A DNA stretch of 64,000 bases, taken from the NCBI GenBank assembly GCA_964460435.1, contig CAYWRH010000005.1, positions 1,791-65,790 of the forward strand, given 5' to 3'. The notes below the pieces were generated by a model. It worked only from the letters and a program-made list of their open reading frames with translations. It searched no databases and was not told where the DNA came from. Positions 33,051 through 52,331 of this stretch are shown here, piece after piece (positions within the stretch are counted from its first letter, which is position 1; the number at the start of each line of letters is the position of its first letter). The DNA comes from an uncultured Desulfatiglans sp. (GTDB lineage: Bacteria > Desulfobacterota > DSM-4660 > Desulfatiglandales > HGW-15). A program made the translations under genes and the position numbers.

Positions 33051-33897
33051 CCATTTTCCCGCCCGAAGAGGCCTTTTTATGAATACGGTCTAGATCGGCA
33101 GGCGAGAGCGCCTGCAATACATCCATGGGGATATCGAGCTGTTTGTGCAGCATTTCAAGCATATTTGCCTTAGGCCCTGGTTCAGGAGAAAAACGCTCAC
33201 CCCGGCTGCTTCTGTTACGCAGCATGGCATAGATATCCTTTTCCTGCAAAAGATCAATCCTCGCCGAAGAAGGGGTGATCTTTGATTCATCAATTTCATC
33301 CCCGTTTATGGGCGATTGATTTATCTTTGGAAAAATAATTGCCCTTGCCGGACAGACACGGGCGCATGCAGGGCAGTTGTTTTTGCAGTTATCAGGCTGT
33401 GAAACCCTGACATCTCCATCATCATCAACAGAGTAAACGCCAAAGAGACAGAAGTTAAAGCAGAGCTTGCAGCGCCGGCAGCGCCTCATGTCTATTACAG
33501 GGAACCAGGGTTCCTGCCTGCCGCTGTGTTTAATAAAATCCATTTTCCGGCCAGACTCAACTGAATTGCGCTCTTTTACGGCATCCATAATCTTTTCAGG
33601 TGAAAGGGAGCGGCAGTTAAGAATCCTTACAGAACAATCAAGCGGAAGAGGTGCTTCTGCCATATCAAACAGGGAGCGTATGGCCCTCTCATAACAGGCG
33701 ATGATAGTAAGTTCAGGGCACTGCGCCCATTCCCTCAATAAAGGGTCATGCCGGGCTGCCAGCCCGCACAGATCATCAACTGCGATGACTTCTAAACCGG
33801 ATTGACCGAGATTCTGCAATATGTATTCACAGGATTCTTTTGAAACAAGCTCCCTGTGAATGCATCTGCAGTATATTACCAAATCCTTTCCGGACAT
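33043..33897 (-). CDS. 4Fe-4S dicluster ferredoxin-domain protein
   Basis: Cluster motifs CRRCKLCFNFC and CKNNCPACARVCP are present. The stop overlaps the radical SAM start. Confidence 0.7.
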   Translation of the reverse strand: MSGKDLVIYCRCIHRELVSKESCEYILQNLGQSGLEVIAVDDLCGLAARHDPLLREWAQCPELTIIACYERAIRSLFDMAEAPLPLDCSVRILNCRSLSPEKIMDAVKERNSVESGRKMDFIKHSGRQEPWFPVIDMRRCRRCKLCFNFCLFGVYSVDDDGDVRVSQPDNCKNNCPACARVCPARAIIFPKINQSPINGDEIDESKITPSSARIDLLQEKDIYAMLRNRSSRGERFSPEPGPKANMLEMLHKQLDIPMDVLQALSPADLDRIHKKASSGGKMDE

Positions 33898-33999: not shown

Positions 34000-34089
34000 C
34001 TGCGCCCTGAACCATGAGCCTTGTGCCTTGAGCCCTTTACCTGTTTTTTAACCCTCGAACCCTGGAATCCTCGACCCCTTGAACCCCTA
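34000..34089. repeat. two adjacent degenerate tandem repeats (7-bp x6, then 8-bp x5) directly 3' of the minus-strand stop
   Basis: The 7-mers at 34000-34041 are ctgcgcc ctgaacc atgagcc ttgtgcc ttgagcc ctttacc. The 8-mers at 34050-34089 are aaccctcg aaccctgg aatcctcg accccttg aaccccta. A T10 run lies at 33987-33996. Confidence 0.6.
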
Positions 34090-38206: not shown

Positions 38207-38899
38207 ATGAAATTCATGCTGGAGTTAATTGATGTAACAAAGGGCTATGGCAGCCCGGGTTTGCCAGGATATGTGGCTGTCCTGAACTCCATAAACCTCA
38301 AACTTAAAGCTATGGATGCTGTTGCCGTGCTTGGGCCGTCAGGGTGCGGGAAGAGCACACTGCTTAATATAATCGGGGCACTTGATAAACCTTCATCGGG
38401 GCAGGTGAAGTTTATGGGGCAGGATCTCTCTACCCTTGATGAACCTGCCCTTGCCCGTATCAGGAACAAGGAGATCGGGTTTGTATTTCAGATGCATCAT
38501 CTTTTGCCCCACTGCACTGTGCTTGAAAATGTGCTTGTGCCGACACTCGCTTACCCTGACAGGGCCAAGAGCAGTTCACTTAAAGAGAGGGCTGTCAGCC
38601 TGATAGAAAGGATGGGGATCAGTGACTGTATGAATCGTCGCCCAGGTGAGATTTCAGGCGGAGAGAGGCAAAGGGCCGCAGTTGCAAGGGCCTTGATCAA
38701 TTCTCCAAAACTGCTTCTGGCCGATGAACCGACCGGGTCGCTTGATCATGAAACAGCAGTAAGCGTGATGGATCTATTAATCAGCCTTAACCGCACAGAG
38801 AATATCACCCTTGTTGTTGTGACCCATGCAAATGACCTGGCGCAGCTGTTTAAAAGGGTTTTCACAATTACTAAAGGCAGGCTTTCAGATGAAAAATAA
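38207..38899 (+). CDS. ABC transporter ATP-binding protein (MacB/LolD/YbbA-type)
   Basis: Walker A GPSGCGKST, signature ISGGERQR and Walker B LLLADEPTGSLD. Confidence 0.9.
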   Translation: MKFMLELIDVTKGYGSPGLPGYVAVLNSINLKLKAMDAVAVLGPSGCGKSTLLNIIGALDKPSSGQVKFMGQDLSTLDEPALARIRNKEIGFVFQMHHLLPHCTVLENVLVPTLAYPDRAKSSSLKERAVSLIERMGISDCMNRRPGEISGGERQRAAVARALINSPKLLLADEPTGSLDHETAVSVMDLLISLNRTENITLVVVTHANDLAQLFKRVFTITKGRLSDEK

Positions 38900-41900: not shown

Positions 41901-42252
41901 CGGCCTTGGCCTTATCCTTGGTTGTATTGGTCTGGGGCTTATTGTTGCAAGAAACATTTTAGAGCGTCAGGCCGAGCTTGCCATGATGAGGGCAGTGGGT
42001 TTCAGCAGAGGCTCCATTATGAAGATGGTATTTTATGAACACCTGTACCTTCTGGGAGCAGGCCTAATATCAGGGTTTATTTGTGCCTTGATTTCTGTTA
42101 TACCCACAATAAAAACAGTATCAGGAGGGCTTCCCGTCGGGCTGGTACTGATTGTGACCACCCTGACGGGGGTAAGCGGGGTTATCTGGGTGCTGGCATC
42201 AATAATTATTGCACTGAAAGGGGAGATATTGGCCCCTTTAAGAAATGAATAA
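38932..42252 (+). CDS. ABC transporter permease with two FtsX-type modules and two large extracytoplasmic domains (1106 aa)
   Basis: Two sets of FtsX-like TM bundles (about aa 490-620 and aa 980-1100) are each preceded by a TM helix and a soluble domain of about 250-430 aa. It follows the ABC ATPase gene. Confidence 0.8.
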   Translation: MTIVRLAIRSIIFYYRMNIALILSASVATATLSGALFVGDSVKATLKHAFYARLGKTVFAVAPGDRFFTEGLSYRLMKQGIETAPVLSMPGMITRGDGAVRVNRVNVLGIDGRFFSLSMAGKAPGELEDGAVLINTALMRRLASGTESVNEVVLRFDNPPLISRNIVLAPLKESTISARLPVTGMVDDNHFGRFSLESNQAEPLNIFVPISWLQREIRREGAINLLLIRNNPLKYDASKIDRAISSEWQLPDAGAELKSRGEDAVELVSSRVFIDTALSDAALKAEPDAIPVLTYFVNGLKAGDRVTPYSMVTAAERKGEFEDIFPEGMKDDEIVINEWLADDLEAKVGDQLIIKYYRPDGWQRLEEAQRAFRICRIIPIEGAASDRTLAPELPGLSDAENCSEWDASLPINLDLIRDKDEAYWDTYRGTPKAFVTLAAGKEMWASSYGTFTAIRFKAGPKEKNAIEENMIRRANPANIGLSVIPVYETGIKASAGGTDFGQLFLGLSMFLIISGVILTWLLFSFSIEGRKGQTGMLLAIGFPVKRLRRLYLAEGLFIALSGAIIGTLFSLLYTRALIFGLSNAWQDAVAGMTVQYSVTIASVCIGFFSGFIIAIVAMAFTLKRQMRLGAHDLLAGNEPVCTNKGKTNRKGKAGWLIPALFLLGAAMIIILGISGGKSAETGAFFGAGMLMLLSIILMIRTVFALYGSRHSSRLISINSLALRNNARKRGRSLAVISMLACGLFMIVAVSANRKNPYAGSEIPSSGTGGFSLYAESSVPVFHDLNSLSGREQWGMDSSVLKGTDILGLRVLEGDDASCLNLNRVNNPRIIGVKPDFLTKRKAFSFQTLDIPEYKNSPWNILEHNYGHNTIPAVGDYPTVYWGLGKETGEMLVYKNSRGEEVKVRIAGMIESSILQGSIVISEENMLEYFPEVEGFRAWLIDTPINKGSKVMEHLTKRMADAGLSVETSAERLDIFNRMENTYLNIFLVLGGLGLILGCIGLGLIVARNILERQAELAMMRAVGFSRGSIMKMVFYEHLYLLGAGLISGFICALISVIPTIKTVSGGLPVGLVLIVTTLTGVSGVIWVLASIIIALKGEILAPLRNE

Positions 42253-42373: not shown

Positions 42374-43780
42374 ATGAGTCATCTCTCCAAATATGCAGGC
42401 CTCCTGCCGGTATTTATCATTATTGCCGGAGGCCTCTCTTTACTCTCTCTGCTCCTTCTTCAGGGACGGGGGGCAAATGTCTCCATGCGTTTGCCTCTAG
42501 CCGAGAACAGTGTTATATCATCGGAAGATTCCATCCCGTTTGCGGGTGAGCTGACTCAATCGAGTGGTGTGCCATCGCAGCTACAGGGATCATGGCCCGG
42601 ATTCAGGGGGGCGAATCTTGATGCAATAGTCACGGAAAAAAATTCAGGGGCCTTTAACCTTAACTGGGAAAAAGAGAGGCCAAAAGAGCTGTGGAATATA
42701 GAACTTGGCGAGGGATATGCAGGGGCCGCCGTTAAAAAGGGTCGAGTATATATACTTGACTACGATCAGAAAAAGGAAGGGGATGTTATACGATGCCTCT
42801 CTCTTGATGATGGCAAAGAGATATGGCGCTATTTTTACAGGGTCAAGATAAAGCGCAACCACGGAATGAGCAGGACAATACCATTTGTTACTGAAGAGAG
42901 CGTAATCACAATTGGTCCCAAATGCCATGTTGTCTGCCTTGATGCAGAGACAGGCAACCTTCGCTGGGTAAGGGATCTTGTCAAAGAAGATGGGGCAGAG
43001 GTTCCTGCCTGGTATGCAGGTCAATGCCCTCTTGTTGACGGCAATAAACTGATACTTGGCGTTGGCGGAAAGGATGCCCTTGTTATGGCCCTTGACTGCC
43101 TTACAGGAAAGATCATATGGAAAACACCCAATCCACAGGGCTTCAAGATGACCCACTCCTCTGTTGTTCCAATGCTCCTTGGCAGTGAAAGGTCTTATGT
43201 ATATTGTTCCAGCGGCGGGGTGGTTGGCGTTTCCGCTGAGGACGGAAGGCTTTTATGGCATTATCCTGACTGGCGTATTAACATAGCAAATGTGCCTACC
43301 CCGGTAATTATCGATAAGGAGCGCATATTCCTTTGCGGAGGCTATAACTCTGGCGCAATGATGCTCTCTGTAAAAATGGTTGATAATAATTATATTCCCG
43401 CCCCCATTCTGAGGCTCAATCCAAGGGTCTTTGGATCGGATCAGCAGACCCCGCTTTTTTACAGGGGCTATATATATGGCGTAAGACCGGATCAGCAGCT
43501 TGTATGCATGGATACTGACGGCAACATAAAGTGGACAAGCACATCTTTAAACAAGTTTGGTCTTGGCCCCTATACCATAATAAATGACATGATCTATATT
43601 ATGAATGATGACGGCCTTCTTTCGGTTGTCAAGGCAACGCCTTCGGCCTATGAGCCTGTCACCAGCGCAAAGGTGCTTGAGGGCCATGAGTCTTGGGGGC
43701 CAATGGTCTTTGTATCGGGCAGACTCATTGTACGAGACCTTACGCGCATGAAGTGTCTTGATATTATGAAAGGGGGTTAA
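42374..43780 (+). CDS. PQQ/BamB-like beta-propeller repeat protein with N-terminal anchor
   Basis: A TM helix is followed by WPGFRGANLD and propeller repeats. It is clearly paralogous to 34087-35385 (LGEGYAGAAVKKGRVYILD versus LGEGFGGAAISKGKVYVYD). Confidence 0.7.
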   Translation: MSHLSKYAGLLPVFIIIAGGLSLLSLLLLQGRGANVSMRLPLAENSVISSEDSIPFAGELTQSSGVPSQLQGSWPGFRGANLDAIVTEKNSGAFNLNWEKERPKELWNIELGEGYAGAAVKKGRVYILDYDQKKEGDVIRCLSLDDGKEIWRYFYRVKIKRNHGMSRTIPFVTEESVITIGPKCHVVCLDAETGNLRWVRDLVKEDGAEVPAWYAGQCPLVDGNKLILGVGGKDALVMALDCLTGKIIWKTPNPQGFKMTHSSVVPMLLGSERSYVYCSSGGVVGVSAEDGRLLWHYPDWRINIANVPTPVIIDKERIFLCGGYNSGAMMLSVKMVDNNYIPAPILRLNPRVFGSDQQTPLFYRGYIYGVRPDQQLVCMDTDGNIKWTSTSLNKFGLGPYTIINDMIYIMNDDGLLSVVKATPSAYEPVTSAKVLEGHESWGPMVFVSGRLIVRDLTRMKCLDIMKGG

Positions 43781-43784
43781 AATC

Positions 43785-44783
43785 ATGAAGGATAAAAATC
43801 AGACCCGTCGTGACTTTTTAAGGGATGTGGCTGTCAGGGGCCCTGTGGCCGCCCTTGGAGGGCTTGTCTCTATCGGGTTATCAAAGGATATTATGGCTAA
43901 AGAACCTGTCAGCATGACAGAAATCGATCCTGAAATGATCCTTTATAAGGAGATAATTAAACCCGCAGCCACAGGTTTTACAGAATCGCGCAGCATATCA
44001 GCAGATAGTGCAGGTTTTATTTATCTGGCAGGAGACAGGGGGATAAAGGTAATGGACTATGCGGGCGCAATAAGGGAGACTATTGATCTTGATGTTTCTC
44101 CATATTGTCTGATCCCCGGGGAAAAAAGATATTATATTGCCTTAAAAGAGAGGATAATTATTACAGATAGAAATGGTAAGAGAGAATCCGAATGGCCTCT
44201 CCTTGGTGATAATTCATGGATTACAGCTATTGCTATGGATGATGAGCATATGTTTATTGCCGATGCAGGCCAGCGGATTGTCTTATGTTATGATCTCAAG
44301 GGTAATTTTATCCGCAGGATCGGAGATAAAAATTTTGACAGGGATATCCCCGGTTTTGTGGTTCTTGGCCCCTACTTTGATCTCGCAATTGCCCCGGATG
44401 GCCTGCTGCGTGTGGCAAACCCTGGAAGACACAGGGTTGAGGCATACACGGTTAAAGGAGACCTGGAATTTGCCTGGGGAGAGTTTGGCAACAGGCCTGA
44501 AGATTTTACTGCCTGCTGCAATCCTGTAAGTTTTGCTGTTCTTTCTGACGGCAGCATCATAACATGTGAAAAGGGCATTGCCCGGGTCAAGGTTTATGAT
44601 ACCTTTGGCAAACTCAGGGGTTTTGTGGCAGACCCCAAAGATATGGCAAATATATCTCAACCGGACGGTTTTAAAATAGAGAGGACTCAACGCTACGGCT
44701 TTGATATAGCGGCAGATGATAACGGGCATGTTTTTATACTCGACAGGTCAAGGAATTTGGTAAGGTTTTTTAAACGGAAATAA
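43785..44783 (+). CDS. NHL-repeat six-bladed propeller protein with twin-arginine signal
   Basis: TRRDFLRDVAV is followed by a hydrophobic stretch. Six repeats of the type 'hvfIaD.g..rV..yd..G.f' are present. Confidence 0.6.
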   Translation: MKDKNQTRRDFLRDVAVRGPVAALGGLVSIGLSKDIMAKEPVSMTEIDPEMILYKEIIKPAATGFTESRSISADSAGFIYLAGDRGIKVMDYAGAIRETIDLDVSPYCLIPGEKRYYIALKERIIITDRNGKRESEWPLLGDNSWITAIAMDDEHMFIADAGQRIVLCYDLKGNFIRRIGDKNFDRDIPGFVVLGPYFDLAIAPDGLLRVANPGRHRVEAYTVKGDLEFAWGEFGNRPEDFTACCNPVSFAVLSDGSIITCEKGIARVKVYDTFGKLRGFVADPKDMANISQPDGFKIERTQRYGFDIAADDNGHVFILDRSRNLVRFFKRK

Positions 44784-44815
44784 AGGTTAAAACAGGTTTC
44801 AGACCTGTCTATAAA

Positions 44816-45397
44816 GTGGTATGGAACATGGATAACAAAAACAACAAAACAAAATCCAGGCGTGAATTTCTGCGTGATGCCCTTCGCGGGGCATCCCTTT
44901 TAGCCATAGGCGGCATAACAGGCCTGGGATGGTATAGAAGGCAGAATGCCCCATATGCCTGGCAGATAGACCCGTACAAATGCGCCACCTGCGGTAACTG
45001 CGAAACAGCATGTGTGCTGGAGGAATCAGCGGTAAAGTGTGTGCACTCCTATGAAATGTGCGGCTACTGCCGGATATGCTTTGGATTTTTTGAACCGCAG
45101 CCCCATGCCATTAATGAGGGCGCTGAAAATCAGCTCTGCCCCATGGGAGCCATAAGAAGAAAGTATATTGAAGACCCGTACTATGAATATACGATAGATG
45201 AATCCCTGTGCACAGGCTGTGCAAAATGTGTAAAGACCTGCACGGGCTTTGGTAACGGCTCTCTTCACATGCAGGTGCGCCATGACAGATGCGTAAACTG
45301 CAATCAGTGTGCGATTGCCCTTGTCTGTCCGTCAGACGCATTCAGGAGGGTTCCTGTCAACTCTCCCTACCTCTTCAAGAAGGGGGACAGGGCTTGA
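44816..45397 (+). CDS. Tat-exported poly-ferredoxin (NapG/NosG-like)
   Basis: SRREFLRDALRGAS twin-arginine signal. Four Cys clusters are present (CATCGNCETAC, CGYCRIC, CTGCAKCVKTC, CVNCNQCAIALVCP). Confidence 0.75.
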   Translation: MVWNMDNKNNKTKSRREFLRDALRGASLLAIGGITGLGWYRRQNAPYAWQIDPYKCATCGNCETACVLEESAVKCVHSYEMCGYCRICFGFFEPQPHAINEGAENQLCPMGAIRRKYIEDPYYEYTIDESLCTGCAKCVKTCTGFGNGSLHMQVRHDRCVNCNQCAIALVCPSDAFRRVPVNSPYLFKKGDRA

Positions 45398-46707
45398 GAT
45401 TAAGGTTACTAATATCATTTATTATCCTTTCGGCATTATTAGTTGTTGCTATCGATGCATATTCAATTGAAAGATTTCCTCCTCCCCAGTTTGAAGGGGA
45501 CTATGTGCGGCCAGAGTTCACTGCGCCTGCGCCAAGGGGAGGTGTATGGCCTGTTGTTGACGCAGCTTTGCTTTTATCGTCCCTTGGCATCTCCTCATGG
45601 TTTGTCCTTAAAAAACGCAGCAGGCCGGCAGTTTTTGGCCTGATGCTGTTCTCGATTGCCTATTTTGGATTTTTTAGAAAGGGGTGTGTCTGCTCAATAG
45701 GGTCGATACAGGACATGGGTTTGTTTCTTTTTAACAAGGACTTTTTTTTACCGCTCATCACCATTTTCTTCTTTATAGCCCCGCTTGTTTTTACCCTGCT
45801 TTTTGGCAGGAGTTTCTGTGCAGGGGTATGCCCGTTAGGGGCTCTCCAGGATATCACACTCATAAGGTCTGTAAAAATACCGGTGTGGCTGGAGCATACA
45901 CTTCGGTTTCTGGCATATCTCTATCTTGCCCTTGCAGTGTGGCTCGCCTCCATGGGGAGCACCTTTGTTATATGCAAGTACGACCCGTATATTGCCATAT
46001 TTCGAAGGAATGCAAATCTTGACCTGCTCATAATCGGCGGAATACTTCTTGTTATTGGATTTTTCATAGGACGGCCCTACTGCCGTTTTTTATGCCCCTA
46101 CGGAGTGATACTCCGCCAGTTTTCGCGACTCTCCAAATGGCGTATAAGCATTACGCCTTCAGACTGCAATCAGTGCAGGCTCTGTGAAGATGCCTGCCCT
46201 TACGGGGCAATTAAGCCGCCGGTGCCTTCATGGCCTGATGCAACCTATAAGGGTGATAAGAGAAGGCTTGCCATTTTGCTTCTCCTGCTCCCGTTTATAA
46301 TTCTCCTTGGCGCCATAACAGGCAACAGGATGGCGCCGATTGCAGCAGGGACTCATCCTGTGGTCAGTCTGGCAGAGAGAATATGGATGGAGGAAAACCA
46401 GCAGATTACTGAGACAACAGATGCAAGCCAGGTTTTCAGGTCATCCGGTGAGACAATAGATTCACTTTATAGACGCGCTGATGTTATAAGGGCAGGTTTT
46501 GAAAAGGGAGGATGGTTTTTCGGAGGCTTTCTGGGGCTTGTTCTCGGAGGCAAGCTGATTTTATTGAGTCTGCGCAGGAGGCAATATGAGTATGAGGCTG
46601 ACAGGGCAGGATGTGTGTCATGCGCACGCTGTTTCAGATACTGTCCAAAGGAGCGTGAATGCCCCCCCAATAAGATCGAGGAGACCGGAGGTTTGATCAT
46701 AAAATGA
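45394..46707 (+). CDS. NapH/NosH-like integral-membrane iron-sulfur protein
   Basis: Two CX3CP motifs (CAGVCP, CRFLCP) lie between TM helices. Two C-terminal 4Fe-4S motifs are present (CNQCRLCEDACP, CVSCARCFRYCP). TTG 45394 (AGGGGG SD, TTGA overlap with the upstream stop) is preferred over the listed 45289. Confidence 0.75.
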   Translation: MRLRLLISFIILSALLVVAIDAYSIERFPPPQFEGDYVRPEFTAPAPRGGVWPVVDAALLLSSLGISSWFVLKKRSRPAVFGLMLFSIAYFGFFRKGCVCSIGSIQDMGLFLFNKDFFLPLITIFFFIAPLVFTLLFGRSFCAGVCPLGALQDITLIRSVKIPVWLEHTLRFLAYLYLALAVWLASMGSTFVICKYDPYIAIFRRNANLDLLIIGGILLVIGFFIGRPYCRFLCPYGVILRQFSRLSKWRISITPSDCNQCRLCEDACPYGAIKPPVPSWPDATYKGDKRRLAILLLLLPFIILLGAITGNRMAPIAAGTHPVVSLAERIWMEENQQITETTDASQVFRSSGETIDSLYRRADVIRAGFEKGGWFFGGFLGLVLGGKLILLSLRRRQYEYEADRAGCVSCARCFRYCPKERECPPNKIEETGGLIIK

Positions 46708-48434
46708 CCCCGAACGCTTCTGCCGATAGACTGTTGATGCTTCAGAATCTCCTTAAAAAGATCATTGTGATAGGGGCTATTTTCAGCCTGGTCTTTCTTG
46801 CGGCGCTTATTGTAAACGGTTATCAGCAGTATGTTAAAGGCGCAGACAAATATCTGTTAATCACTGAACTGAAACATAAGTTACTAGAGAGCCCTGATGA
46901 TGAAGCCCTTATAAGAGAGATAAGGGAACTTGACCGTGACTATCGCGCAGACAGACTGAGACGGATAGATTTTTCAGGCCTGGCCTCATTAATGCTATTA
47001 ATAAGCGCAATAATAACAATAGGGGCATATAAATGGATGCAGGGCCTTAAGGAAACAGTTCCTGAACCATGCGATATGAAAGGTGAACCTTTTAAAAGGC
47101 TTTATTTAGGCGAAAGCCGGATAGCTCTTATTGCCTTTGCAGCCATTTTAACGGTAACAGCCATTTTTATTCAGCAGCAAATGCACACTGAATGGATTGA
47201 GGGCATTAACAAAGGAGTGCCTGAAGAACCTGCTTATGCATCTGTGGATGAATTTATGCAGAACTGGCACCGCTTCAGGGGTTTTGGAGGCGCTGGCATT
47301 GCAAATCTGGAGGATATTCCATTAAAATGGGATGGCGCAACCGGCGAGGGCATAATCTGGAAAACACCTGTTCCTCTGCCAGGTTTTAACTCGCCCATTG
47401 TGTGGAAGGATCGTGTTTTTCTGTCAGGCGGTAATGATGAAAAACGGCAGGTTTATTGTTTTGATGCATCCACAGGCGCTATCCTGTGGAGCGTAGATGT
47501 GCCCTCTGCCCCTGCCGGCGCCCAAAAATTTACAGTAATGGAAGACACAGGTTATGCGGCCTCATCGATGGCAACAGACGGGGTGCGTGTATATGCCATC
47601 TTTGCAACTGGGGATATGGCTGCGATTGATTTTAATGGACGTTTATTGTGGCACAGGGGTCTTGGCATACCTGTGAGCCTGTACGGGTATGCCTCAAGCC
47701 TTGAGGTGTGGCAGGATCGTGTAATAGTGCAGTATGATCAGGCCGGTGCAGAGGATAATAAGTCCAGGCTGTTTGCCTTTAATGGCGCAACAGGGACCCT
47801 CATTTGGGAGACAAAAAGGCCTGTTCCAAACAGCTGGACATCTCCCATTGTGGCAAATACCGGTAACATCTGGCAGTTAATAACCGTTGCCGACCCGTAT
47901 GTGATAGCCTATGACCCTGACAATGGAAAAGAGATTTGGCGTGCGAACTGTATTAAGGGTGATGTGGGCGCATCGCCGATTGTTGCCGGCAACATGGCTA
48001 TTGCAATAGCCCCTGACCTCCATAATGCGGCAGTTCGCACTGACGGAAAAGGCGATGTAACGGCCACCCATATTGCATGGATAAATGATGATGTCGGGCC
48101 AACCATTGTCTCTCCGGTTTCAGACGGCAGGAGTGTATTTTATCTTGATACCTATGGAACGCTATATAATGTCAACCTTGCAGATGGAAAACTCATTTAT
48201 GAACATGATTTTAACGAAAACGTTAATGCCTCACCCACACTGGCAGCAGGCAGGATATATGTCCTTACACTTGAAGGAAACATGTTCATAGGCACAGCAG
48301 GTGAAAGGGAGTTTCATGTTGAGGCAACTAACCCTTTAGGTGAACAGTGTTATGCAACCCCCGCCTTTATGCCCGGGAGGATATATATAAGAGGAAAAGA
48401 GAATTTATACTGTATTGGAAATGAAAAACCCTGA
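46704..48434 (+). CDS. membrane-anchored (about 3 TM) PQQ/BamB-like beta-propeller protein
   Basis: Three N-terminal hydrophobic helices are followed by WHRFRGFGG and propeller repeats. The start forms an ATGA overlap with the upstream gene. Confidence 0.7.
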   Translation: MTPNASADRLLMLQNLLKKIIVIGAIFSLVFLAALIVNGYQQYVKGADKYLLITELKHKLLESPDDEALIREIRELDRDYRADRLRRIDFSGLASLMLLISAIITIGAYKWMQGLKETVPEPCDMKGEPFKRLYLGESRIALIAFAAILTVTAIFIQQQMHTEWIEGINKGVPEEPAYASVDEFMQNWHRFRGFGGAGIANLEDIPLKWDGATGEGIIWKTPVPLPGFNSPIVWKDRVFLSGGNDEKRQVYCFDASTGAILWSVDVPSAPAGAQKFTVMEDTGYAASSMATDGVRVYAIFATGDMAAIDFNGRLLWHRGLGIPVSLYGYASSLEVWQDRVIVQYDQAGAEDNKSRLFAFNGATGTLIWETKRPVPNSWTSPIVANTGNIWQLITVADPYVIAYDPDNGKEIWRANCIKGDVGASPIVAGNMAIAIAPDLHNAAVRTDGKGDVTATHIAWINDDVGPTIVSPVSDGRSVFYLDTYGTLYNVNLADGKLIYEHDFNENVNASPTLAAGRIYVLTLEGNMFIGTAGEREFHVEATNPLGEQCYATPAFMPGRIYIRGKENLYCIGNEKP

Positions 48435-50775
48435 TCTTGAAAAAATAGATGAAATAATTTCATTAACAGGAAAGAGCCCTGACAAAATCCTGCCTATACT
48501 TCAGGCTGTGCAGAAGGAGTATGGCTATCTGCCACAGCCTGCGCTGGAAATGATATGTGAGAAGACAGAGATAACACCTGCTGAAATTACAGGGTTCAGC
48601 AGCTTTTATGACCAGTTCAGGTTTGCGCCGGCAGGGGAACATATTATTCGTGTATGCCTTGGAACCGCCTGTCATGTAAAGGGAGCGCAGGGGGTATTTG
48701 ATGCCTTTAAAAGATATCTTCATATCCCTGAGAAGGGTGATACTGATTCAGACGGCCTTTTTACCATAGAGCCTGTTGCCTGTCTGGGCTGCTGTACACT
48801 TGCGCCTGTCGTGCAGATAGGTAATGTAATATACGGCCACCTGACACCTGATAGGGTTGAAAATACCATTAAGGATTTTTTAGCTTATCATAAGGCACAG
48901 AACAAAAAGGGCATGCTGTCAAAGACCCTTAAATTGCCTGGTGATATAAAGGGGGAGATAAGGGTAGGGCTGGGATCATGCTGCCAGGCCAGGGGAAGCG
49001 GTCACCTTAGAGATGCAATAGAAAAGATAATTTTTGAGACAGGCATACCTGCCATTATAAAACATGTGGGCTGCGTTGGCATGTGCTATCAGACACCTCT
49101 TATGGAGATACTGCTGTCTGACGGCAGCCGCTATCTCTATACAGGCGTGAGGCCTGATGATGCTAAGGATATCCTGTTAAAACATTTTAGGCCAAGCGGC
49201 ATCAAGAGAAAAGTTATGCCCATTATTTCAAAGGGGCTGGATATCCTCCTTAATGCGGGCGAATCACCCTCTATGCCCCGCTATGCCATTAACAGGCGTG
49301 AAAGGCATGTGGCGGATTTTCTTGACTGCCAGAGGAATATTGCCACAGAACACTGCGGCAGCGTGAGCCCTGTAAACATTGATGAATACATTGATCACGA
49401 TGGATTTAGGGCGCTTATAAAGGCTGTGCATGAGCTCAATAGCGATAAGGTAATATCAGAGATAGAGGCAAGCGGGTTAAGGGGGAGAGGGGGCGCAGGG
49501 TTTCCCACATATCTAAAGTGGCGGACAGTAAGGGATCAGCCTGAAAATGAACGCTTTATTGTGCTAAACGGAGATGAGGGAGACCCAGGGGCATTTATGG
49601 ACAGGATGCTCATGGAGTCTTATCCTTTCAGGGTTCTGGAAGGGATGATTATTGCTGCCCATACTGTTGGGGCAGGCAGGGGTTATCTTTATATCCGCGC
49701 CGAATATCCCCTTGCCATTGAGCGCATGCAGGAGGCCATAAAGATGTGCCATGCACGCGGTTTTCTGGGCAACAATATCTGTGGCAGCTGCTTTTCCATT
49801 GATCTCACGATTGTGGCAGGCGCAGGGGCATTTGTCTGCGGTGAGGAGACAGCGCTTTTGGCAAGCATCATGGGGCAAAGGGGTATGCCGCGGCTCAGGC
49901 CGCCATATCCGGCCCAGCAGGGGTTATGGGGGAGGCCGACACTAATTAACAATGTTGAGACCTATGCGCTTGTCCCATGGATCATAAGAAACGGCGGGGC
50001 TGCATTTGCACAAATGGGCACTGAAAGGAGCAGGGGGACAAAGGTTTTTGCACTTGCAGGCAAGATTGCAAGAGGCGGTCTTATTGAGGTGCCAATGGGC
50101 ATTACCCTGCGGAGAATAGTGGAGGAGATAGGAGGGGGTATTGCAGGCGGCTTGAAATTCAAGGCCATACAGATAGGCGGCCCCAGCGGAGGGTGTGTGC
50201 CTGCCAGACTTTCAGATATCCCGGTTGATTACGAATCCCTTGCTGATGCCGGCGCCATCATGGGGTCAGGCGGTCTTGTAGTTATGGATGAGACAGACTG
50301 CATGGTGGATATAGCGAGGTATTTTCTGCAATTCACCCAGAACCAGTCATGCGGAAGATGTACCTTCTGCAGGGTCGGGACCCGCCGCATGCTTGAGATA
50401 TTGGACAGGCTTTGCAGCGGTAAAGGCAAGGCATCGGATATTGAAGAGCTTGAAGAGCTTGGAAACAGTATAAAGCAGGGAAGCCTGTGTGCACTTGGGG
50501 GCACTGCCCCAAACCCGGTGCTTTCAACACTGAAATATTTTCGCGAGGAGTATGAGGCCCATGTAAATGGGAGATGCCCTGCTGGTAAATGCAGGGCACT
50601 TATAAAATACAGGGTTATAGAGGATTGTATCGGCTGCACCATTTGCGCCCAGCATTGCCCTGTGGGGGCGATAGGTTTTAAGCCATATGAAAGACATGAG
50701 ATCAATATTGATATGTGCATACGCTGCGGGTCATGTAAGAATGTATGCCCGGAAAAGGCGGTAGTTGTGGAATGA
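48415..50775 (+). CDS. NuoE-like/NuoF-like fusion flavoprotein (NAD(P)H-binding, FMN, multiple Fe-S) with C-terminal 2x[4Fe-4S] ferredoxin domain
   Basis: Thioredoxin-like 2Fe-2S motifs CLGTAC...CLGCC. NuoF motifs GRGGAGFPT and GDEGDPGAF. N3 cluster motif SCGRCTFCRVG. C-terminal CIGCTICAQHCP and CIRCGSCKNVCP. Confidence 0.85.
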   Translation: MEMKNPDLEKIDEIISLTGKSPDKILPILQAVQKEYGYLPQPALEMICEKTEITPAEITGFSSFYDQFRFAPAGEHIIRVCLGTACHVKGAQGVFDAFKRYLHIPEKGDTDSDGLFTIEPVACLGCCTLAPVVQIGNVIYGHLTPDRVENTIKDFLAYHKAQNKKGMLSKTLKLPGDIKGEIRVGLGSCCQARGSGHLRDAIEKIIFETGIPAIIKHVGCVGMCYQTPLMEILLSDGSRYLYTGVRPDDAKDILLKHFRPSGIKRKVMPIISKGLDILLNAGESPSMPRYAINRRERHVADFLDCQRNIATEHCGSVSPVNIDEYIDHDGFRALIKAVHELNSDKVISEIEASGLRGRGGAGFPTYLKWRTVRDQPENERFIVLNGDEGDPGAFMDRMLMESYPFRVLEGMIIAAHTVGAGRGYLYIRAEYPLAIERMQEAIKMCHARGFLGNNICGSCFSIDLTIVAGAGAFVCGEETALLASIMGQRGMPRLRPPYPAQQGLWGRPTLINNVETYALVPWIIRNGGAAFAQMGTERSRGTKVFALAGKIARGGLIEVPMGITLRRIVEEIGGGIAGGLKFKAIQIGGPSGGCVPARLSDIPVDYESLADAGAIMGSGGLVVMDETDCMVDIARYFLQFTQNQSCGRCTFCRVGTRRMLEILDRLCSGKGKASDIEELEELGNSIKQGSLCALGGTAPNPVLSTLKYFREEYEAHVNGRCPAGKCRALIKYRVIEDCIGCTICAQHCPVGAIGFKPYERHEINIDMCIRCGSCKNVCPEKAVVVE

Positions 50776-52331
50776 TAAACTTAACCATAAATAAAATACC
50801 TGTCCAGGTATCTGAAGGGACAACCATCCTGGAGGCTGCTGAATCAATCGGTATCCGAATACCGACACTCTGCTATATAAAGGAGATTTCACCCCTTACA
50901 AGCTGTATGTTATGTGTTGTCAGGATTGAGGGAAGAAAAAATTTTGTCCCCTCCTGTGCAACAAGGGCAGAAGAGGGCATGGTGGTGTATAGTGATGATC
51001 CTGTTGTAACATCAGCCAGGCGCACTGCATTGGAACTGCTTCTGAGTGACCATGCGGGTGACTGCATGGGGCCGTGCGAGGCGGCCTGCCCTGCCGGAAT
51101 GGATATCCCGAAAATGATACGTTATATGGCAAATGGACAATATGACAGGGCGATTGAGACGATCAAGGAAGATATCGCATTGCCTGCAGTAACAGGCTAT
51201 ATTTGCCCTGCTCCATGTGAAAAGGTGTGCCGCCGCGGACAGATTGATGAGCCAATATCCATAAAGTTTATAAAACGCTGTGCGGCTGAGCTGGACCTTT
51301 CAAAAAATGAGCCATATAAACCTGCTGTAATGGCTGACCTGAATAAAAAGGTGGCCATAGTAGGCAGCGGGCCTGCGGGCTTAAGCGCTGCATATCATCT
51401 TCAGCGAAATGGCATCTCCTGCACGGTTTTTGATGACCGTGAAAAGCCGGGCGGTATGCTGCGCTATGAGGTGCCTGAAATAATGCTGCCAAGGTCTCTC
51501 CTTGATGCAGAGATAGAAGAGATCAGAAGGCTGGGTGTTATTTTCAGGCAGGGGGTTCGCATAGGAAGGGACCTTGCCCTTGATGAACTTTTAAAATCCT
51601 ATGATGCGGTTTTTTTGGGTATTGGAAATGTCCTTCATAATGATCTTGAATGGCTTGGCATTAAACCGGTTGACGGGGGCATTAAGGTCAACAGGGATAC
51701 ACTTCAGACTGAAATCCAAGGAGTATTTGCCGGAGGCGATGCAAGGAAGGGGTTAAGGCTTGCTGTGCGTTCTATGGCTGACGGGAAAAAGGCGGGGGCA
51801 GGGATCCTGCAATATTTAAAGGGCGAACCGGTTACAGGTGTTGAGCGGTTATTCAACAGCAGGATGGGGAAAATTACGCCCGGGGAGATTATGGAGTATA
51901 AAGATTCTGACCATAAAAGAGAAGGTATTAAGATTGAATCTCATAATGGGATAAGCAAGGATCAGGCTTTTAGTGAATCCCGCTACTGCCTGCACTGCGA
52001 CTGCCGGAAGAAAGAAGAGTGCAAGCTGCGTTTATATGCAGATGAATATGGGGCAACAGGGGGAAAATACAGGGGAAAGCGGAGGGACTTTAAGCGCATT
52101 AATGAACACAGTGAAATTATTTATGAACCGGGTAAATGTATAGACTGCGGCATATGTGTGCGCATTACAGGACAGCAAAAAGAAAAACTTGGCCTGGCAT
52201 TTATTGGCAGAGGGTTTGATGTAAGGGTGGCTGTCCCATTTGATAAATCACTGGCAGAAGGGCTCTCAAAAAGAGTAAGGGATGTTGTAATGGCATGCCC
52301 TACAGGGGCGCTGGCGTTTAAGTCTGATTAA
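50772..52331 (+). CDS. 2Fe-2S ferredoxin-like N-terminus fused to GltD-like NAD(P)H/FAD oxidoreductase
   Basis: The N-terminus is NuoG/HydA-like (MINLTINKIPVQV...PTLC). The GltD-type region is CPAGMDIP...CPAPCEKVCRRG. Dinucleotide motifs VAIVGSGPAGLSAA and VFAGGDA are present. The start forms an ATGA overlap with the upstream stop, and the listed 50745 is less likely. Confidence 0.8.
   Translation: MINLTINKIPVQVSEGTTILEAAESIGIRIPTLCYIKEISPLTSCMLCVVRIEGRKNFVPSCATRAEEGMVVYSDDPVVTSARRTALELLLSDHAGDCMGPCEAACPAGMDIPKMIRYMANGQYDRAIETIKEDIALPAVTGYICPAPCEKVCRRGQIDEPISIKFIKRCAAELDLSKNEPYKPAVMADLNKKVAIVGSGPAGLSAAYHLQRNGISCTVFDDREKPGGMLRYEVPEIMLPRSLLDAEIEEIRRLGVIFRQGVRIGRDLALDELLKSYDAVFLGIGNVLHNDLEWLGIKPVDGGIKVNRDTLQTEIQGVFAGGDARKGLRLAVRSMADGKKAGAGILQYLKGEPVTGVERLFNSRMGKITPGEIMEYKDSDHKREGIKIESHNGISKDQAFSESRYCLHCDCRKKEECKLRLYADEYGATGGKYRGKRRDFKRINEHSEIIYEPGKCIDCGICVRITGQQKEKLGLAFIGRGFDVRVAVPFDKSLAEGLSKRVRDVVMACPTGALAFKSD

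What the first reader, a model, noticed from the sequence alone, without database searches (positions are those of the whole stretch)
42374..52331. Operon coupling a cytoplasmic NuoEF/GltD-type flavoprotein pair to NapH/NapG-like proteins and periplasmic beta-propellers: candidate undescribed trans-membrane redox system
Seven same-strand genes are packed with gaps of 4 and 32 nt, then start/stop overlaps at 45394 (TTGA), 46704 (ATGA), 48415 (20 nt) and 50772 (ATGA). In order they encode an anchored PQQ/BamB-like propeller, a Tat-signal NHL propeller and a Tat-signal poly-ferredoxin (NapG/NosG-like). These are followed by a membrane protein with two CX3CP motifs plus two cytoplasmic 4Fe-4S motifs (NapH/NosH-like) and a 3-TM-anchored propeller. 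The last two are a NuoE-NuoF fusion with FMN/NAD(P)H motifs and a 2Fe-2S plus GltD-like FAD protein. Soluble NAD(P)H-oxidising flavoproteins are not normally operon partners of NapGH-type modules, and propellers of this type are not known NapGH clients. The architecture is formally analogous to nos clusters, which combine the propeller enzyme NosZ, NosG/NosH electron input and the ABC components NosF/Y. An ABC system sits immediately upstream here. My hypothesis is that electrons from NAD(P)H and/or quinol are delivered across the membrane to one or more periplasmic propeller enzymes of unknown substrate. I know of no characterised system with this composition.
Basis: partly seen in the sequence, partly recalled or inferred. 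Interest (0 to 1): 0.82.

Follow-up and report, generated by a model that had tools for sequence, protein, structure and literature searches.

The report
Bifurcating flavoprotein wired to periplasmic ferredoxin
A seven-gene operon found in the same order in strict anaerobes of at least eight phyla joins an NADH/ferredoxin flavoprotein of the electron-bifurcating Bfu type to a membrane-spanning iron-sulfur protein, an exported four-cluster ferredoxin and exported beta-propellers, which looks like an undescribed, cytochrome-free way of moving low-potential electrons across the inner membrane; the substrate is unknown.

Summary

The adjacency is not accidental. In 47 of 55 related loci with enough sequence, all seven genes are contiguous and colinear. 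These loci come from Desulfobacterota, Planctomycetota, Bacteroidota, KSB1, Latescibacterota, Hydrogenedentota, Verrucomicrobia and Aminicenantes.

The interpretation needs corrections:
- The NuoEF/GltD pair is a recognisable Bfu-family module; its closest solved relatives are StnABC and NfnABC.
- Its GltD-like subunit has lost the NADP(H)-binding domain in every ortholog, so it is not an NADPH oxidiser.
- The upstream ABC system is Lol/MacB/Dev-type (FtsX), not NosFY-like.
- NapH-like proteins have already been linked bioinformatically to propeller enzymes (ExaA, NirS).
- The conserved unit is larger. It includes propeller-GT4-ABC-FtsX (35575-42252) and is often next to a five-gene isoprenoid/radical-SAM operon (27124-33897, minus strand).

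Best reading: NADH (probably with reduced ferredoxin) feeds the BfuA-like subunit, then an 8-TM NapH-like polyferredoxin, then a Tat-exported 4x[4Fe-4S] ferredoxin, then an NHL propeller with an invariant vicinal Cys-Cys and membrane-anchored propellers. The substrate is unknown. I found no curated family and no paper describing this system.

The parts
42374..43780 (+). Prop1: N-terminally TM-anchored 8-bladed PQQ_2/BamB-like beta-propeller, periplasmic
   Evidence: Pfam PQQ_2 E 7.8e-25. AF2 model pLDDT 82.6, closest folds BamB, tetrathionate hydrolase and PQQ-ADH. One TM at 10-28. Strongly conserved loop motifs KRNHGMSRT (H163 invariant), WYxGQCP and MTHSS (H261 invariant) over 64 orthologs.
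43785..44783 (+). Exported 6-bladed NHL propeller with an invariant vicinal Cys244-Cys245 (CCNP)
   Evidence: Pfam NHL. AF2 model with core pLDDT >90; Foldseek finds only generic NHL domains. CC is invariant in 72 locus orthologs and in 144 of 144 full-length representatives among the best 150 of a 1.84-billion-protein search, where 1201 representatives have E<=1e-30. Tat motif TRRDFL here, TM anchor in Planctomycetota.
44816..45397 (+). Tat-exported tetra-[4Fe-4S] ferredoxin (NapG-like in cofactor content)
   Evidence: 16 invariant Cys in four CxxCxxCxnC(P) motifs over 70 orthologs. The RR motif is conserved at >=90% in those orthologs and is visible in every example printed. The closest solved sequence is the 4-cluster polyferredoxin WorS of WorABCSL, 9mqx_E, E 2.8e-8. 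NapG model scores 26 bits against a cut-off of 269.
45394..46707 (+). NapH/NosR-type integral-membrane polyferredoxin, predicted 8 TM, N-in/C-in
   Evidence: Fer4_5 x2 and Fer4. napH_ model scores 48 bits against a cut-off of 213. Invariant Cys over 76 orthologs: C142/C146 and C230/C234 (two CX3CP motifs, cytoplasmic face), C258-C268 and C407-C417 (cytoplasmic ferredoxin motifs), C98/C100/C194 (periplasmic face), plus the periplasmic motif ERFPPPxFE. No solved structure covers the membrane part.
46704..48434 (+). Prop2: 3-TM-anchored PQQ_2 beta-propeller, start overlapping the NapH-like stop
   Evidence: Pfam PQQ_2 E 1.3e-28. TMs at 20-38, 90-108 and 133-151. Always immediately after the NapH-like gene.
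48415..50775 (+). BfuC-BfuB fusion (NuoE + HydB/NuoF-type): FMN/NADH site, [2Fe-2S] domains, N3-type [4Fe-4S], C-terminal 2x[4Fe-4S]
   Evidence: Pfam. PDB 9bov_B and 8oh5_B (StnB) E about 1e-211 to 1e-206; 9n5u_B (NfnB) and HydB also match. Cofactor Cys and the GRGGAGFP / GDEGDPGAF / GAGAFVCGEETAL motifs are conserved in 65 orthologs, and the fusion is conserved.
50772..52331 (+). BfuA-like subunit: NuoG-type [2Fe-2S], GltD-type 2x[4Fe-4S], FAD domain WITHOUT the NADP(H) Rossmann domain, C-terminal Fe-S motifs; no FdhF-like tail
   Evidence: PDB 9bov_A, 8oh5_C (StnC) and 9n5u_A (NfnA). The alignment jumps from chain position about 308 to about 448. StnC domain map taken from PMC10482914. The deletion is conserved in 59 orthologs.
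35575..36771 (+). Prop0: signal-anchored PQQ_2 propeller, always paired with the GT4 gene
   Evidence: Pfam. Present in 28 of 43 loci of at least 19 kb, upstream or downstream of the core.
36768..38066 (+). GT4-family glycosyltransferase with an invariant N-terminal CxxC
   Evidence: Pfam Glycos_transf_1 and Glyco_transf_4. Conservation. Co-occurrence.
38207..38899 (+). LolD/DevA/MacB-type ABC ATPase
   Evidence: NCBIfam LolD 249.6 bits, DevA 175.7 bits. Present in 32 of 43 long loci.
38932..42252 (+). Duplicated FtsX-type permease (about 10 TM) with two large periplasmic domains of 465 and 235 aa
   Evidence: Pfam FtsX x2. ADOP and DevC hits. Topology. Present in 30 of 43 long loci.
34087..35385 (-). 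PropM: secreted PQQ_2 propeller paralog (1-4 copies in other loci)
   Evidence: Pfam. Present in 32 of 43 long loci and usually precedes the isoprenoid operon.
33043..33897 (-). Cytoplasmic 2x[4Fe-4S] ferredoxin-domain protein, first gene of the linked five-gene operon
   Evidence: Pfam Fer4 families. Rigidly followed by the radical-SAM gene in the metagenome loci.
31479..33050 (-). Radical SAM enzyme (CX3CX2C motif; TIGR04013-like)
   Evidence: Synteny.
29773..31509 (-). DUF116 (Cys-rich) fused to a trans-polyprenyl diphosphate synthase
   Evidence: Pfam polyprenyl_synt E 4.6e-42 and DUF116 E 2.2e-32. NCBIfam GGPP/FPP synthase hits, all below cut-off.
27124..29831 (-). Prenyltransferase-repeat protein (28926-29831) plus class II terpene-cyclase-like protein (27124-28929) with a DADDTA (DxDD) motif
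   Evidence: Pfam SQHop_cyclase_C E 4.7e-35 and Prenyltrans. SHC in PDB E 1e-19. Motif read directly from the translation.

Best explanation
The seven genes encode one trans-envelope electron-transfer system that carries low-potential electrons from the cytoplasm to the periplasm without haem, and without any component that requires quinone.

Proposed path:
1. Cytoplasmic input. A Bfu-type module consists of a fused BfuC-BfuB (FMN, NADH site, extra Fe-S clusters) and a BfuA-like subunit. It oxidises NADH, most likely together with reduced ferredoxin (confurcation).
2. Hand-over. Electrons pass along the BfuA-like Fe-S chain and FAD. This FAD domain has lost its NADP(H) domain, so the usual 'third substrate' site is replaced by a protein partner.
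3. Membrane crossing. The partner is the NapH/NosR-type 8-TM polyferredoxin. Its cytoplasmic 2x[4Fe-4S], its pair of CX3CP motifs at the inner membrane face and three invariant Cys at the outer face form the conduit.
4. Periplasm. A Tat-exported 4x[4Fe-4S] ferredoxin accepts the electrons. It passes them to the NHL propeller, whose invariant vicinal Cys-Cys is the best candidate for a redox-active or substrate-binding site, and/or to the membrane-anchored propellers Prop1 and Prop2.
5. Terminal substrate. This is not identified. Because the operon travels with a GT4 glycosyltransferase, a Lol/MacB/Dev-type ABC-FtsX machine, extra propellers and often an isoprenoid/radical-SAM/terpene-cyclase operon, I favour an envelope-associated target, namely an exported isoprenoid glycolipid or something handled on it. 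An external electron sink for fermenters (e.g. sulfur or polysulfide) is my second choice.

Shown: gene content, cofactor motifs, topology predictions, conservation and synteny.
Inferred: subunit contacts, direction of electron flow, confurcation and substrate.
For: - Synteny: 47 of 55 loci have all seven genes colinear, across about eight phyla, and start/stop codons overlap.
- Bfu identity: PDB matches to StnB/StnC, NfnB/NfnA and HydB. BfuB-type extra clusters and FMN/NADH motifs are conserved. The Bfu family definition and its 17 clades without assigned function come from PMC9304861.
- Loss of the NADP(H) domain is conserved in all orthologs, which fits a protein acceptor taking the place of a soluble third substrate.
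- NapH-like protein: all 15 motif Cys are invariant or nearly so, and the predicted topology places Fe-S motifs on the cytoplasmic side and the C98/C100/C194 triad on the periplasmic side.
- NapH-like proteins are regarded as modular transmembrane electron-transfer units for extracytosolic oxidoreductases (PMC8238504).
- The periplasmic ferredoxin has a conserved RR signal and 16 invariant Cys. Its nearest solved relative by sequence, WorS, is a polyferredoxin wire attached to a Bfu core.
- The NHL CC pair is invariant in 144 of 144 distant representatives.
- There is no CxxCH haem motif in any cluster protein.
- The main hosts are strict fermenters (Sedimentisphaerales, PMC11266412). For them, a sink that reoxidises both NADH and ferredoxin is useful (inference).
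- Envelope link: Prop0-GT4-ABC-FtsX is present in about 28-32 of 43 long loci. Perlabentimonas has a LolA-like gene inside the cluster. The isoprenoid operon lies directly downstream in L121, L126, L137, L140, L147, L150, L151 and L162, and is adjacent in the window.
Against: - There is no experimental or expression data.
- No complex prediction could be run, so the contacts BfuA-like/NapH-like, NapH-like/ferredoxin and ferredoxin/NHL are untested.
- The propellers have no recognisable cofactor site and fold like BamB scaffolds.
- Two of the four Cys of the N-terminal [2Fe-2S] domain of BfuB are conserved in only about 62% of orthologs, so bifurcation or confurcation is not assured.
- How NapH-type proteins move electrons across the membrane is unknown for the whole family, and no structure exists. 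Classical NapH is a quinol dehydrogenase, so a quinol route cannot be excluded.
- The isoprenoid operon is not adjacent in several lineages: L091, L108, L110, L112 and L131.
- One locus (L057) lacks the Bfu genes downstream.
Confidence: 0.55

Rival explanations
1. Same wiring, opposite direction. One of the periplasmic propellers oxidises an external low-potential donor. Electrons enter through the ferredoxin and the NapH-like protein, and the Bfu module bifurcates them to NAD+ and ferredoxin. This would be analogous to Bfu hydrogenases and formate dehydrogenases, and to the ExaA-NapH-like clusters.
For: Bfu enzymes are reversible and normally couple a mid- or low-potential third substrate to NAD and ferredoxin (PMC9304861). 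NapH-like proteins cluster with the PQQ alcohol oxidase ExaA (PMC8238504). Prop1 has enzyme-like invariant loops, and its fold also matches PQQ-ADHs and tetrathionate hydrolase.
Against: - The propellers score far below the PQQ-dehydrogenase cut-offs (28.8 bits against 480), and the hosts are strict anaerobes. That PQQ synthesis needs O2 is my own knowledge.
- Moving electrons inward works against the membrane potential, so reducing ferredoxin would need a donor well below about -500 mV (inference).
- No catalytic metal or cofactor motif was found in any exported protein other than the ferredoxin.
Confidence: 0.15
2. The NapH-like/ferredoxin pair works as a classical NapGH-type quinol dehydrogenase. 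The Bfu-like module is then a separate NADH(+Fd):quinone reductase, or serves the cytoplasmic radical-SAM/isoprenoid enzymes. Electrons would reach the periplasm through the quinone pool rather than by direct protein-protein transfer.
For: The proteins resemble NapH and NapG in cofactor motifs. The polyprenyl synthase operon next door could make a dedicated lipid carrier. Schut et al. predict quinone-reducing Bfu complexes. The FAD site left exposed by loss of the NADPH domain could bind a quinone (inference).
Against: - The Bfu genes are glued to the membrane genes by overlapping codons and by synteny in eight phyla, whereas the isoprenoid operon is often elsewhere.
- Nothing in the cluster resembles a quinone-ring biosynthesis enzyme.
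- The NapH and NapG model scores are far below cut-off.
Confidence: 0.15
3. The propellers and the ABC-FtsX/GT4 genes form a purely structural envelope-biogenesis or lipid/lipoprotein-trafficking machine (BamB/Lol-like). The redox genes would only supply reducing power for maintenance, for example keeping periplasmic thiols reduced or removing oxidants, with no dedicated catalytic substrate.
For: - BamB is the best structural match of Prop1.
- The ATPase is LolD-like and there is a LolA-like gene in Perlabentimonas.
- The NHL protein carries an invariant vicinal Cys pair and does not need Tat in Planctomycetota, which argues for thiol chemistry rather than a complex cofactor.
- A membrane-anchored thioredoxin and a MarR regulator accompany the isoprenoid operon in 12-13 loci.
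Against: A Bfu-type low-potential input and a four-cluster ferredoxin are far more reducing power than ordinary disulfide reduction needs (inference). Prop1 has invariant loop motifs with His, Arg and Lys typical of an active or binding site.
Confidence: 0.12

Closest known systems
Bfu family of electron-bifurcating flavoenzymes, specifically Nfn-Bfu (StnABC of Sporomusa ovata; NfnABC of Caldicellulosiruptor saccharolyticus; archaeal Nfn-Bfu)
   Same: NuoE-like [2Fe-2S] subunit. HydB/NuoF-like subunit with FMN, NADH site, N-terminal [2Fe-2S] domain and C-terminal 2x[4Fe-4S]. BfuA with NuoG-type [2Fe-2S], GltD-type 2x[4Fe-4S] and FAD domain. Best PDB matches have E 1e-211 to 1e-90.
   Different: BfuC and BfuB are fused. 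The NADP(H) Rossmann domain (about 135-140 residues) and the FdhF-like C-terminal domain of StnC are absent. The genes sit in an operon with membrane and periplasmic redox proteins rather than standing alone as a soluble transhydrogenase.
NapGH quinol-dehydrogenase module of periplasmic nitrate reductase, and NosGH/NosR of nos clusters
   Same: A Tat-exported four-cluster ferredoxin plus a membrane polyferredoxin with two CX3CP motifs and two cytoplasmic [4Fe-4S] motifs.
   Different: - Scores are far below family cut-offs: NapH 48 against 213, NapG 26 against 269, NosR 43 against 1000.
- 8 predicted TMs instead of 4, with the second Fe-S motif after an extra TM pair.
- A conserved periplasmic ERFPPPxFE motif and a Cys triad.
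- No NapA, NosZ, cytochrome or FMN-binding domain.
- The neighbouring ABC system is FtsX-type, not NosFY.
'NapH-like' flavinylated extracytosolic electron-transfer systems (Meheust et al. 2021, eLife, PMC8238504)
   Same: The concept of a modular NapH-like transmembrane conduit serving varied extracytosolic oxidoreductases, including the beta-propeller enzymes ExaA and NirS.
   Different: Those systems are defined by an ApbE-flavinylated FMN-binding domain. Here none was detected by Pfam in the cluster proteins; a Tat polyferredoxin takes that place, and a cytoplasmic Bfu module is the partner.
WorABCSL (Bfu core plugged onto a WorS polyferredoxin wire)
   Same: A Bfu core coupled to strings of four-cluster polyferredoxins. 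WorS (9mqx_E) is the closest solved sequence to the exported ferredoxin.
   Different: WorS is cytoplasmic and binds tungsten enzymes. Here the polyferredoxin is exported by Tat and is separated from the Bfu core by the membrane protein.
LolCDE / MacB / DevBCA type VII ABC machines, and BamB
   Same: LolD/DevA-like ATPase, FtsX permease with large periplasmic domains, BamB-like 8-bladed propellers, and a LolA-like protein in one lineage.
   Different: The permease is a single duplicated 1106-aa chain. No membrane-fusion protein or BamA partner was seen. All scores are below equivalog cut-offs. The whole set is embedded in a redox operon.

Membership tests
Bfu (BfuABC) family | BfuB core: NuoF-type FMN/NADH site plus N3-type [4Fe-4S] | tested here: met
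   Complex1_51K E 6.7e-45 and NADH_4Fe-4S E 2.2e-33. Motifs and C646/649/652/692 are conserved in 65 orthologs.
Bfu (BfuABC) family | Extra BfuB clusters absent from non-bifurcating NuoF homologs (C-terminal 2x[4Fe-4S]; N-terminal [2Fe-2S] domain) | tested here: inconclusive
   The C-terminal eight Cys are invariant. The N-terminal domain is present and all four Cys occur in the window protein, but C189 and C224 are conserved in only about 62% of orthologs.
Bfu (BfuABC) family | BfuC thioredoxin-like [2Fe-2S] | tested here: met
   2Fe-2S_thioredx E 5.6e-48. C81/C86/C123/C127 are 98% conserved, and the domain is fused to BfuB.
Bfu (BfuABC) family | Coupled reaction with NAD(H), ferredoxin and a third substrate | not testable with these tools
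   Needs enzyme assays.
Nfn-Bfu / StnABC transhydrogenase | BfuA carries a GltD/NfnB-type FAD plus NADP(H)-binding double Rossmann fold | tested here: not met
   The FAD motifs are kept, but the second Rossmann domain is missing. The alignment skips StnC positions about 309-447. The spacing from GxGxxG to xAGGD is about 121 residues in all orthologs. No second GxGxxG/A motif is visible in the sequence.
Nfn-Bfu / StnABC transhydrogenase | FdhF-like C-terminal domain of StnC (residues 683-1172) that mediates tetramer formation | tested here: not met
   The protein ends at 528 aa, and orthologs are 431-578 aa.
NapH (quinol dehydrogenase subunit) / NosH | Reaches the curated family score; 4-TM architecture with two CX3CP motifs and two cytoplasmic [4Fe-4S] | tested here: not met
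   TIGR02163 scores 48.2 bits against a cut-off of 213; NF007013 scores 43 against 234. The motifs are present, but 8 TMs are predicted and the second Fe-S motif follows an extra TM pair.
NapG / NosG | Tat signal plus four [4Fe-4S] clusters, and reaches the family score | tested here: not met
   The Tat motif and 16 invariant Cys are present, but NF007012 scores 26.4 bits against a cut-off of 269.
nap / nos respiratory clusters | Presence of the catalytic subunit (NapA molybdoenzyme or NosZ copper propeller) and NosDFY-type ABC-2 transporter | tested here: not met
   No such domains occur in the window cluster or in the 80 genome loci. The permease is FtsX-type. The NHL protein has no conserved His set for copper.
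Flavinylated NapH-like systems (Meheust 2021) | FMN-binding domain or ApbE encoded in the NapH-like protein or its cluster | tested here: not met
   No FMN_bind or ApbE hit in any cluster protein. No further conserved neighbour except a small Cys4 protein.
PQQ-dependent dehydrogenases | Reaches family score; PQQ/Ca site and vicinal disulfide within the propeller | tested here: not met
   TIGR03075 scores 28.8 bits (Prop1) and 29.5 bits (Prop2) against a cut-off of 480. No conserved CC occurs in Prop1, Prop2 or PropM.
BamB | Reaches equivalog score; lipoprotein of the BAM complex | tested here: not met
   TIGR03300 scores 51-68 bits against a cut-off of 285. No lipobox; the proteins have TM anchors instead. 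Fold similarity only, TM-score normalised to the target about 0.70-0.75.

The most novel reading that the evidence does not exclude
This is the first example of a flavin-based electron-bifurcating (Bfu) enzyme whose 'third substrate' is a transmembrane polyferredoxin. It would be a haem-free and quinone-independent electron-export chain that lets strictly fermentative and other anaerobic diderm bacteria of many phyla discharge NADH and reduced ferredoxin together onto a periplasmic or envelope acceptor, through an exported ferredoxin and a cofactor-less Cys-Cys propeller. That amounts to a new type of anaerobic respiratory or electron-sink module, possibly working with a dedicated exported isoprenoid glycolipid.
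Probability: 0.35. Interest if true: 0.88.

Novelty: new variant of a known kind. Interest (0 to 1): 0.74.

Why it matters
Three open problems become testable if this reading is right.

1. Schut et al. list 17 Bfu clades with no assigned third substrate. This system would define one, and it would be the first in which the partner is a membrane conduit to the periplasm.

2. How NapH/NosR-type proteins pass electrons through the membrane is unresolved. This family is highly conserved, it has a cytoplasmic donor and a periplasmic acceptor encoded beside it, and it shows a clear set of invariant Cys on both membrane faces. That makes it a clean model.

3. The hosts are abundant but poorly understood anaerobes of sediments and digesters: Sedimentisphaerales and other Planctomycetota, Desulfatiglandales, Bacteroidales, KSB1, Latescibacterota, Hydrogenedentota and Aminicenantes. 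A shared electron sink or envelope-redox function would change how their fermentative energy budgets are modelled.

The linked isoprenoid/radical-SAM/terpene-cyclase operon also points to an undescribed bacterial terpenoid lipid.

Tried and rejected
- Accidental adjacency: rejected by synteny.
- nos-like copper propeller or nitrous-oxide reductase analogy: rejected. The NHL protein has only three His, none part of a conserved set, there is no cupredoxin domain, and the ABC system is FtsX-type. A literature search for lactonase-type N2O reductases gave nothing usable.
- True PQQ dehydrogenases or BamB orthologs: rejected on family scores.
- NADPH-oxidising GltD, or a genuine Stn/Nfn transhydrogenase: rejected by the conserved loss of the NADP(H) domain.
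- Structure searches of the NHL and Prop1 models gave only generic propeller matches and no function.
- Looking for informative domain fusions of the NHL family in 1.84 billion representatives found none.
- Rfam search of the whole window found no riboswitch or RNA that could reveal a ligand. The promoter/terminator scan was uninformative, with promoter-like sites below the shuffle expectation.
- A vicinal CC in PropM is not conserved.
- Ten literature searches found no description of the cluster: NapH/NuoF/propeller; DUF116/polyprenyl/radical SAM; Stn/Nfn; Bfu; Sedimentisphaerales plus cyclase; NosR/PQQ/NuoEF; N2O reductase; bifurcating plus NapH; Perlabentimonas; sulfur electron sink. The mention of Perlabentimonas in PMC11406978 concerns a Bfu hydrogenase, not this operon.
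- The source organism could not be named. Prop1 is 100% identical to P0241, but no record was retrievable. The closest loci are Desulfobacterota MAGs (L004, L005).

Full report
**1. Observation**

The + strand between 42374 and 52331 carries seven ORFs exactly as described.
- The junctions are a 4-nt gap, a 32-nt gap, TTGA at 45394 (with a GGGGGA ribosome-binding site upstream), ATGA at 46704, a 14-20 nt overlap at 48415/48421, and ATGA at 50772.
- The last gene most likely starts at 50772 rather than at the first ATG (50745), because ortholog conservation starts at M10.
- No cluster protein has a CxxCH haem motif.

**2. Conservation**

The NapH-like protein has thousands of homologs. The closest (55-98% identity, same length) come from Desulfobacterota and Planctomycetota. 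Two first contexts, a 6.5-Mb Desulfatiglandales genome and a Planctomycetota contig, already showed the same eleven genes in the same order.

I then ran tblastn with the window proteins against them.
- In 47 of 55 loci with room for all seven genes, the genes are contiguous and colinear.
- Two of the eight exceptions are merely split hits, and four lack only Prop1.
- One KSB1 locus has a TonB-dependent receptor and a phosphorylase inserted.
- One Verrucomicrobia locus next to an integrase lacks the flavoprotein genes.
- By record title, the hosts are Desulfatiglandales and Desulfobacterales, Sedimentisphaerales/Phycisphaerae/Thermoguttaceae and a Brocadiaceae MAG, KSB1, Latescibacterota, Hydrogenedentota, Verrucomicrobia, Aminicenantaceae and Bacteroidales. 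The last group includes the cultured Perlabentimonas gracilis M08_MB (L080).

**3. The unit is larger than reported**

- Prop0-GT4-ABC ATPase-FtsX permease (window 35575-42252) accompanies the core in about 28-32 of 43 loci of at least 19 kb. It lies upstream in Desulfobacterota and Planctomycetota, and downstream in Bacteroidota, Latescibacterota and Aminicenantes.
- One to four extra secreted propellers of the PropM type (window 34087-35385, minus strand) are usual.
- In 62 non-Desulfobacterota loci a small (about 80 aa) signal-anchored Cys4 protein sits between the NHL and ferredoxin genes.
- The divergent minus-strand block 27124-33897 encodes a ferredoxin-domain protein, a radical SAM enzyme, a DUF116-polyprenyl synthase fusion, a prenyltransferase-repeat protein and a class II terpene-cyclase-like protein with a DxDD motif.
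- This block is a rigid five-gene operon in metagenome contigs.
- It lies directly downstream of NapH-Prop2-BfuCB-BfuA-PropM-PropM in eight of those contigs. In many others it is preceded only by PropM-type propellers, and in five it is unlinked. Linkage is therefore frequent but not universal.

**4. The cytoplasmic module**

The 786-aa protein is a fusion of a NuoE/BfuC domain with a HydB/BfuB-type NuoF.
- It contains an N-terminal [2Fe-2S]-like domain, the FMN/NADH site, an N3-type cluster and a C-terminal 2x[4Fe-4S].
- Its best solved relatives are StnB (8oh5_B), 9bov_B, NfnB (9n5u_B) and HydB, with E 1e-211 to 1e-165.

The 519/528-aa protein matches StnC, 9bov_A and NfnA.
- The alignment jumps from StnC position about 308 to about 448, and the protein ends before the FdhF-like domain.
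- According to the StnABC structure paper, StnC residues 102-565 are the GltD fold, with two Rossmann folds for FAD and NADPH, and residues 683-1172 are the FdhF-like domain (PMC10482914).
- In the window protein the FAD motifs (GSGPAGL, GGMLRY, GVFAGGDA) are kept, but there is no second dinucleotide motif.
- The spacing from GxGxxG to xAGGD is about 121 residues in essentially all 59 orthologs.

The pair is therefore a Bfu-family core (definition in PMC9304861) with a BfuA that has lost its NADP(H) site. That paper lists 17 BfuB clades without assigned function and predicts membrane-bound Bfu complexes only of the Mbh and Nuo types.

**5. The membrane and periplasmic parts**

The NapH-like protein shares two Fer4_5 (CX3CP) motifs and ferredoxin motifs with NapH, NosR and MauN, but scores far below their cut-offs. 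Hydropathy and charge distribution predict 8 TMs with both ends inside.
- At the cytoplasmic face: the two CX3CP pairs (C142/C146, C230/C234).
- In the cytoplasm: the two ferredoxin motifs (C258-C268, C407-C417).
- At the periplasmic face: three invariant Cys (C98, C100, C194) and the invariant ERFPPPxFE segment.

This arrangement suggests a conduit with redox sites on both sides of the membrane. That is an inference, because no structure exists for the family.

The exported ferredoxin has a conserved twin-arginine motif and 16 invariant Cys. Its closest solved sequence is WorS, the polyferredoxin wire attached to a Bfu core.

The NHL protein folds as a plain six-bladed propeller.
- Its distinguishing feature is a vicinal C244-C245 in a CCNP motif. 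It is invariant in 72 locus orthologs and in all 144 full-length representatives among the best 150 hits of an exhaustive profile search. That search found 1201 representatives at E<=1e-30.
- Planctomycete orthologs use a TM anchor rather than a Tat signal. This argues against a cytoplasmically inserted cofactor and for thiol-based chemistry.

Prop1 is an eight-bladed propeller. It resembles BamB most, then the cofactor-free tetrathionate hydrolase and the PQQ-ADHs. Its invariant loop motifs suggest a binding or active site.

**6. Mechanism**

I propose outward electron flow along this path:
- NADH, probably together with reduced ferredoxin
- Bfu core
- BfuA-like Fe-S chain and FAD
- NapH-like conduit
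- exported ferredoxin
- NHL Cys-Cys and/or the anchored propellers
- an unknown envelope or external acceptor

Outward flow is favoured for three reasons, all inferences. It is driven by the membrane potential. The module is of a type that handles low-potential electrons. The dominant hosts are strict fermenters that need sinks for both NADH and ferredoxin (PMC11266412).

The companion genes point to an exported lipidic molecule as substrate or co-factor of the process. These are:
- the GT4 glycosyltransferase
- the Lol/Dev/MacB-type ABC-FtsX machine
- a LolA-like gene in Perlabentimonas
- the isoprenoid/terpene-cyclase operon, which in some lineages also carries an MFS exporter, a MarR regulator and a membrane-anchored thioredoxin

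External sulfur compounds remain an alternative. The rivals are inward flow, a quinol route, and a maintenance or thiol-redox role. They are listed with their tests.

**7. Comparison with known systems, and novelty**

The building blocks are all known kinds: the Bfu core, the NapH/NosR-type conduit, a NapG-like polyferredoxin, BamB-like and NHL propellers, and a type VII ABC machine. Several points separate this system from described ones.
- NapH-like conduits serving propeller enzymes have been noted before, but only in flavinylated systems (PMC8238504).
- I found no FMN-binding or ApbE domain here.
- I found no curated NCBIfam or Pfam family specific to any of the seven proteins.
- I found no paper describing the combination in ten searches.

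I therefore class it as a new variant of a known kind. It is widely distributed and well defined, and its substrate is unknown.

**8. Limits**

- All functional statements beyond domain content, conservation, predicted topology and synteny are inferences.
- No multimer prediction, expression data or genome-wide co-occurrence analysis was possible with the tools and caps available.
- Taxon names are the titles of MAG records and may be imprecise.

Noticed in passing
window 27124-33897 (minus strand): A five-gene operon encodes a ferredoxin-domain protein, a radical SAM enzyme, a DUF116-polyprenyl diphosphate synthase fusion, a prenyltransferase-repeat protein and a class II terpene-cyclase-like protein (DADDTA motif). 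It is rigidly conserved in about 50 metagenome contigs and looks like the biosynthesis of an undescribed bacterial terpenoid. None of the proteins reaches a curated family cut-off.
   Followed up: partly
L002:9163-9396 and 61 other loci (between the NHL and ferredoxin genes): A small (about 77-82 aa) protein has an N-terminal RR/TM segment and a C-x5-C-x2-C-x5-C motif. It is present in all non-Desulfobacterota lineages and absent as a separate ORF in the window, where the N-terminus of the exported ferredoxin resembles it.
   Followed up: partly
window 52466-53116 (minus strand): A convergent gene encodes a Cys-rich DUF3795 protein with a twin-arginine motif (TRRDFV). It is conserved at 89% identity next to the operon in the close relative L005 but was not seen in other phyla.
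   Followed up: no
L051:11595-13730 (KSB1 MAG): A TonB-dependent receptor gene is inserted between the NapH-like and Prop2 genes, and a glycogen phosphorylase between Prop2 and the Bfu gene. The receptor may hint at an imported periplasmic substrate in that lineage.
   Followed up: no
L080:1158-1877 (Perlabentimonas gracilis M08_MB): A LolA-like (PF17131/DUF4292) protein is encoded inside the array of propeller genes upstream of the core. This fits periplasmic handling of a lipidic cargo.
   Followed up: no
L013:16999-17769 and six other Planctomycetota loci (opposite strand, downstream of the GltD-like gene): A Tat-signal-bearing FMN_red (NADPH-dependent FMN reductase fold) protein, i.e. a predicted periplasmic flavoprotein, recurs next to the cluster.
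   Followed up: no
L093, L096, L116, L118, L128, L153 and others (isoprenoid operon subgroup): In 12-13 contigs the terpenoid operon additionally carries an MFS_3 exporter between the synthase and cyclase genes. Downstream it has a MarR-type regulator and a membrane-anchored thioredoxin (DUF6132 + Trx).
   Followed up: partly
window 36768-38066: The GT4 glycosyltransferase has an invariant N-terminal C16-x2-C19 (FYCENC) plus an invariant C166. This is unusual for GT4 enzymes and may be a metal or redox site.
   Followed up: no
window 54134-58420: Two tandem paralogous large secreted calcineurin-like metallophosphoesterase proteins (782 and 589 aa) share N- and C-terminal regions. They lie just downstream and are not part of the conserved cluster.
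   Followed up: no
window 26001-52000: G+C is about 0.45-0.50 across the whole supercluster, against 0.41-0.44 in both flanks. This may reflect horizontal acquisition, or it may reflect codon or amino-acid bias of the Fe-S and propeller proteins.
   Followed up: no
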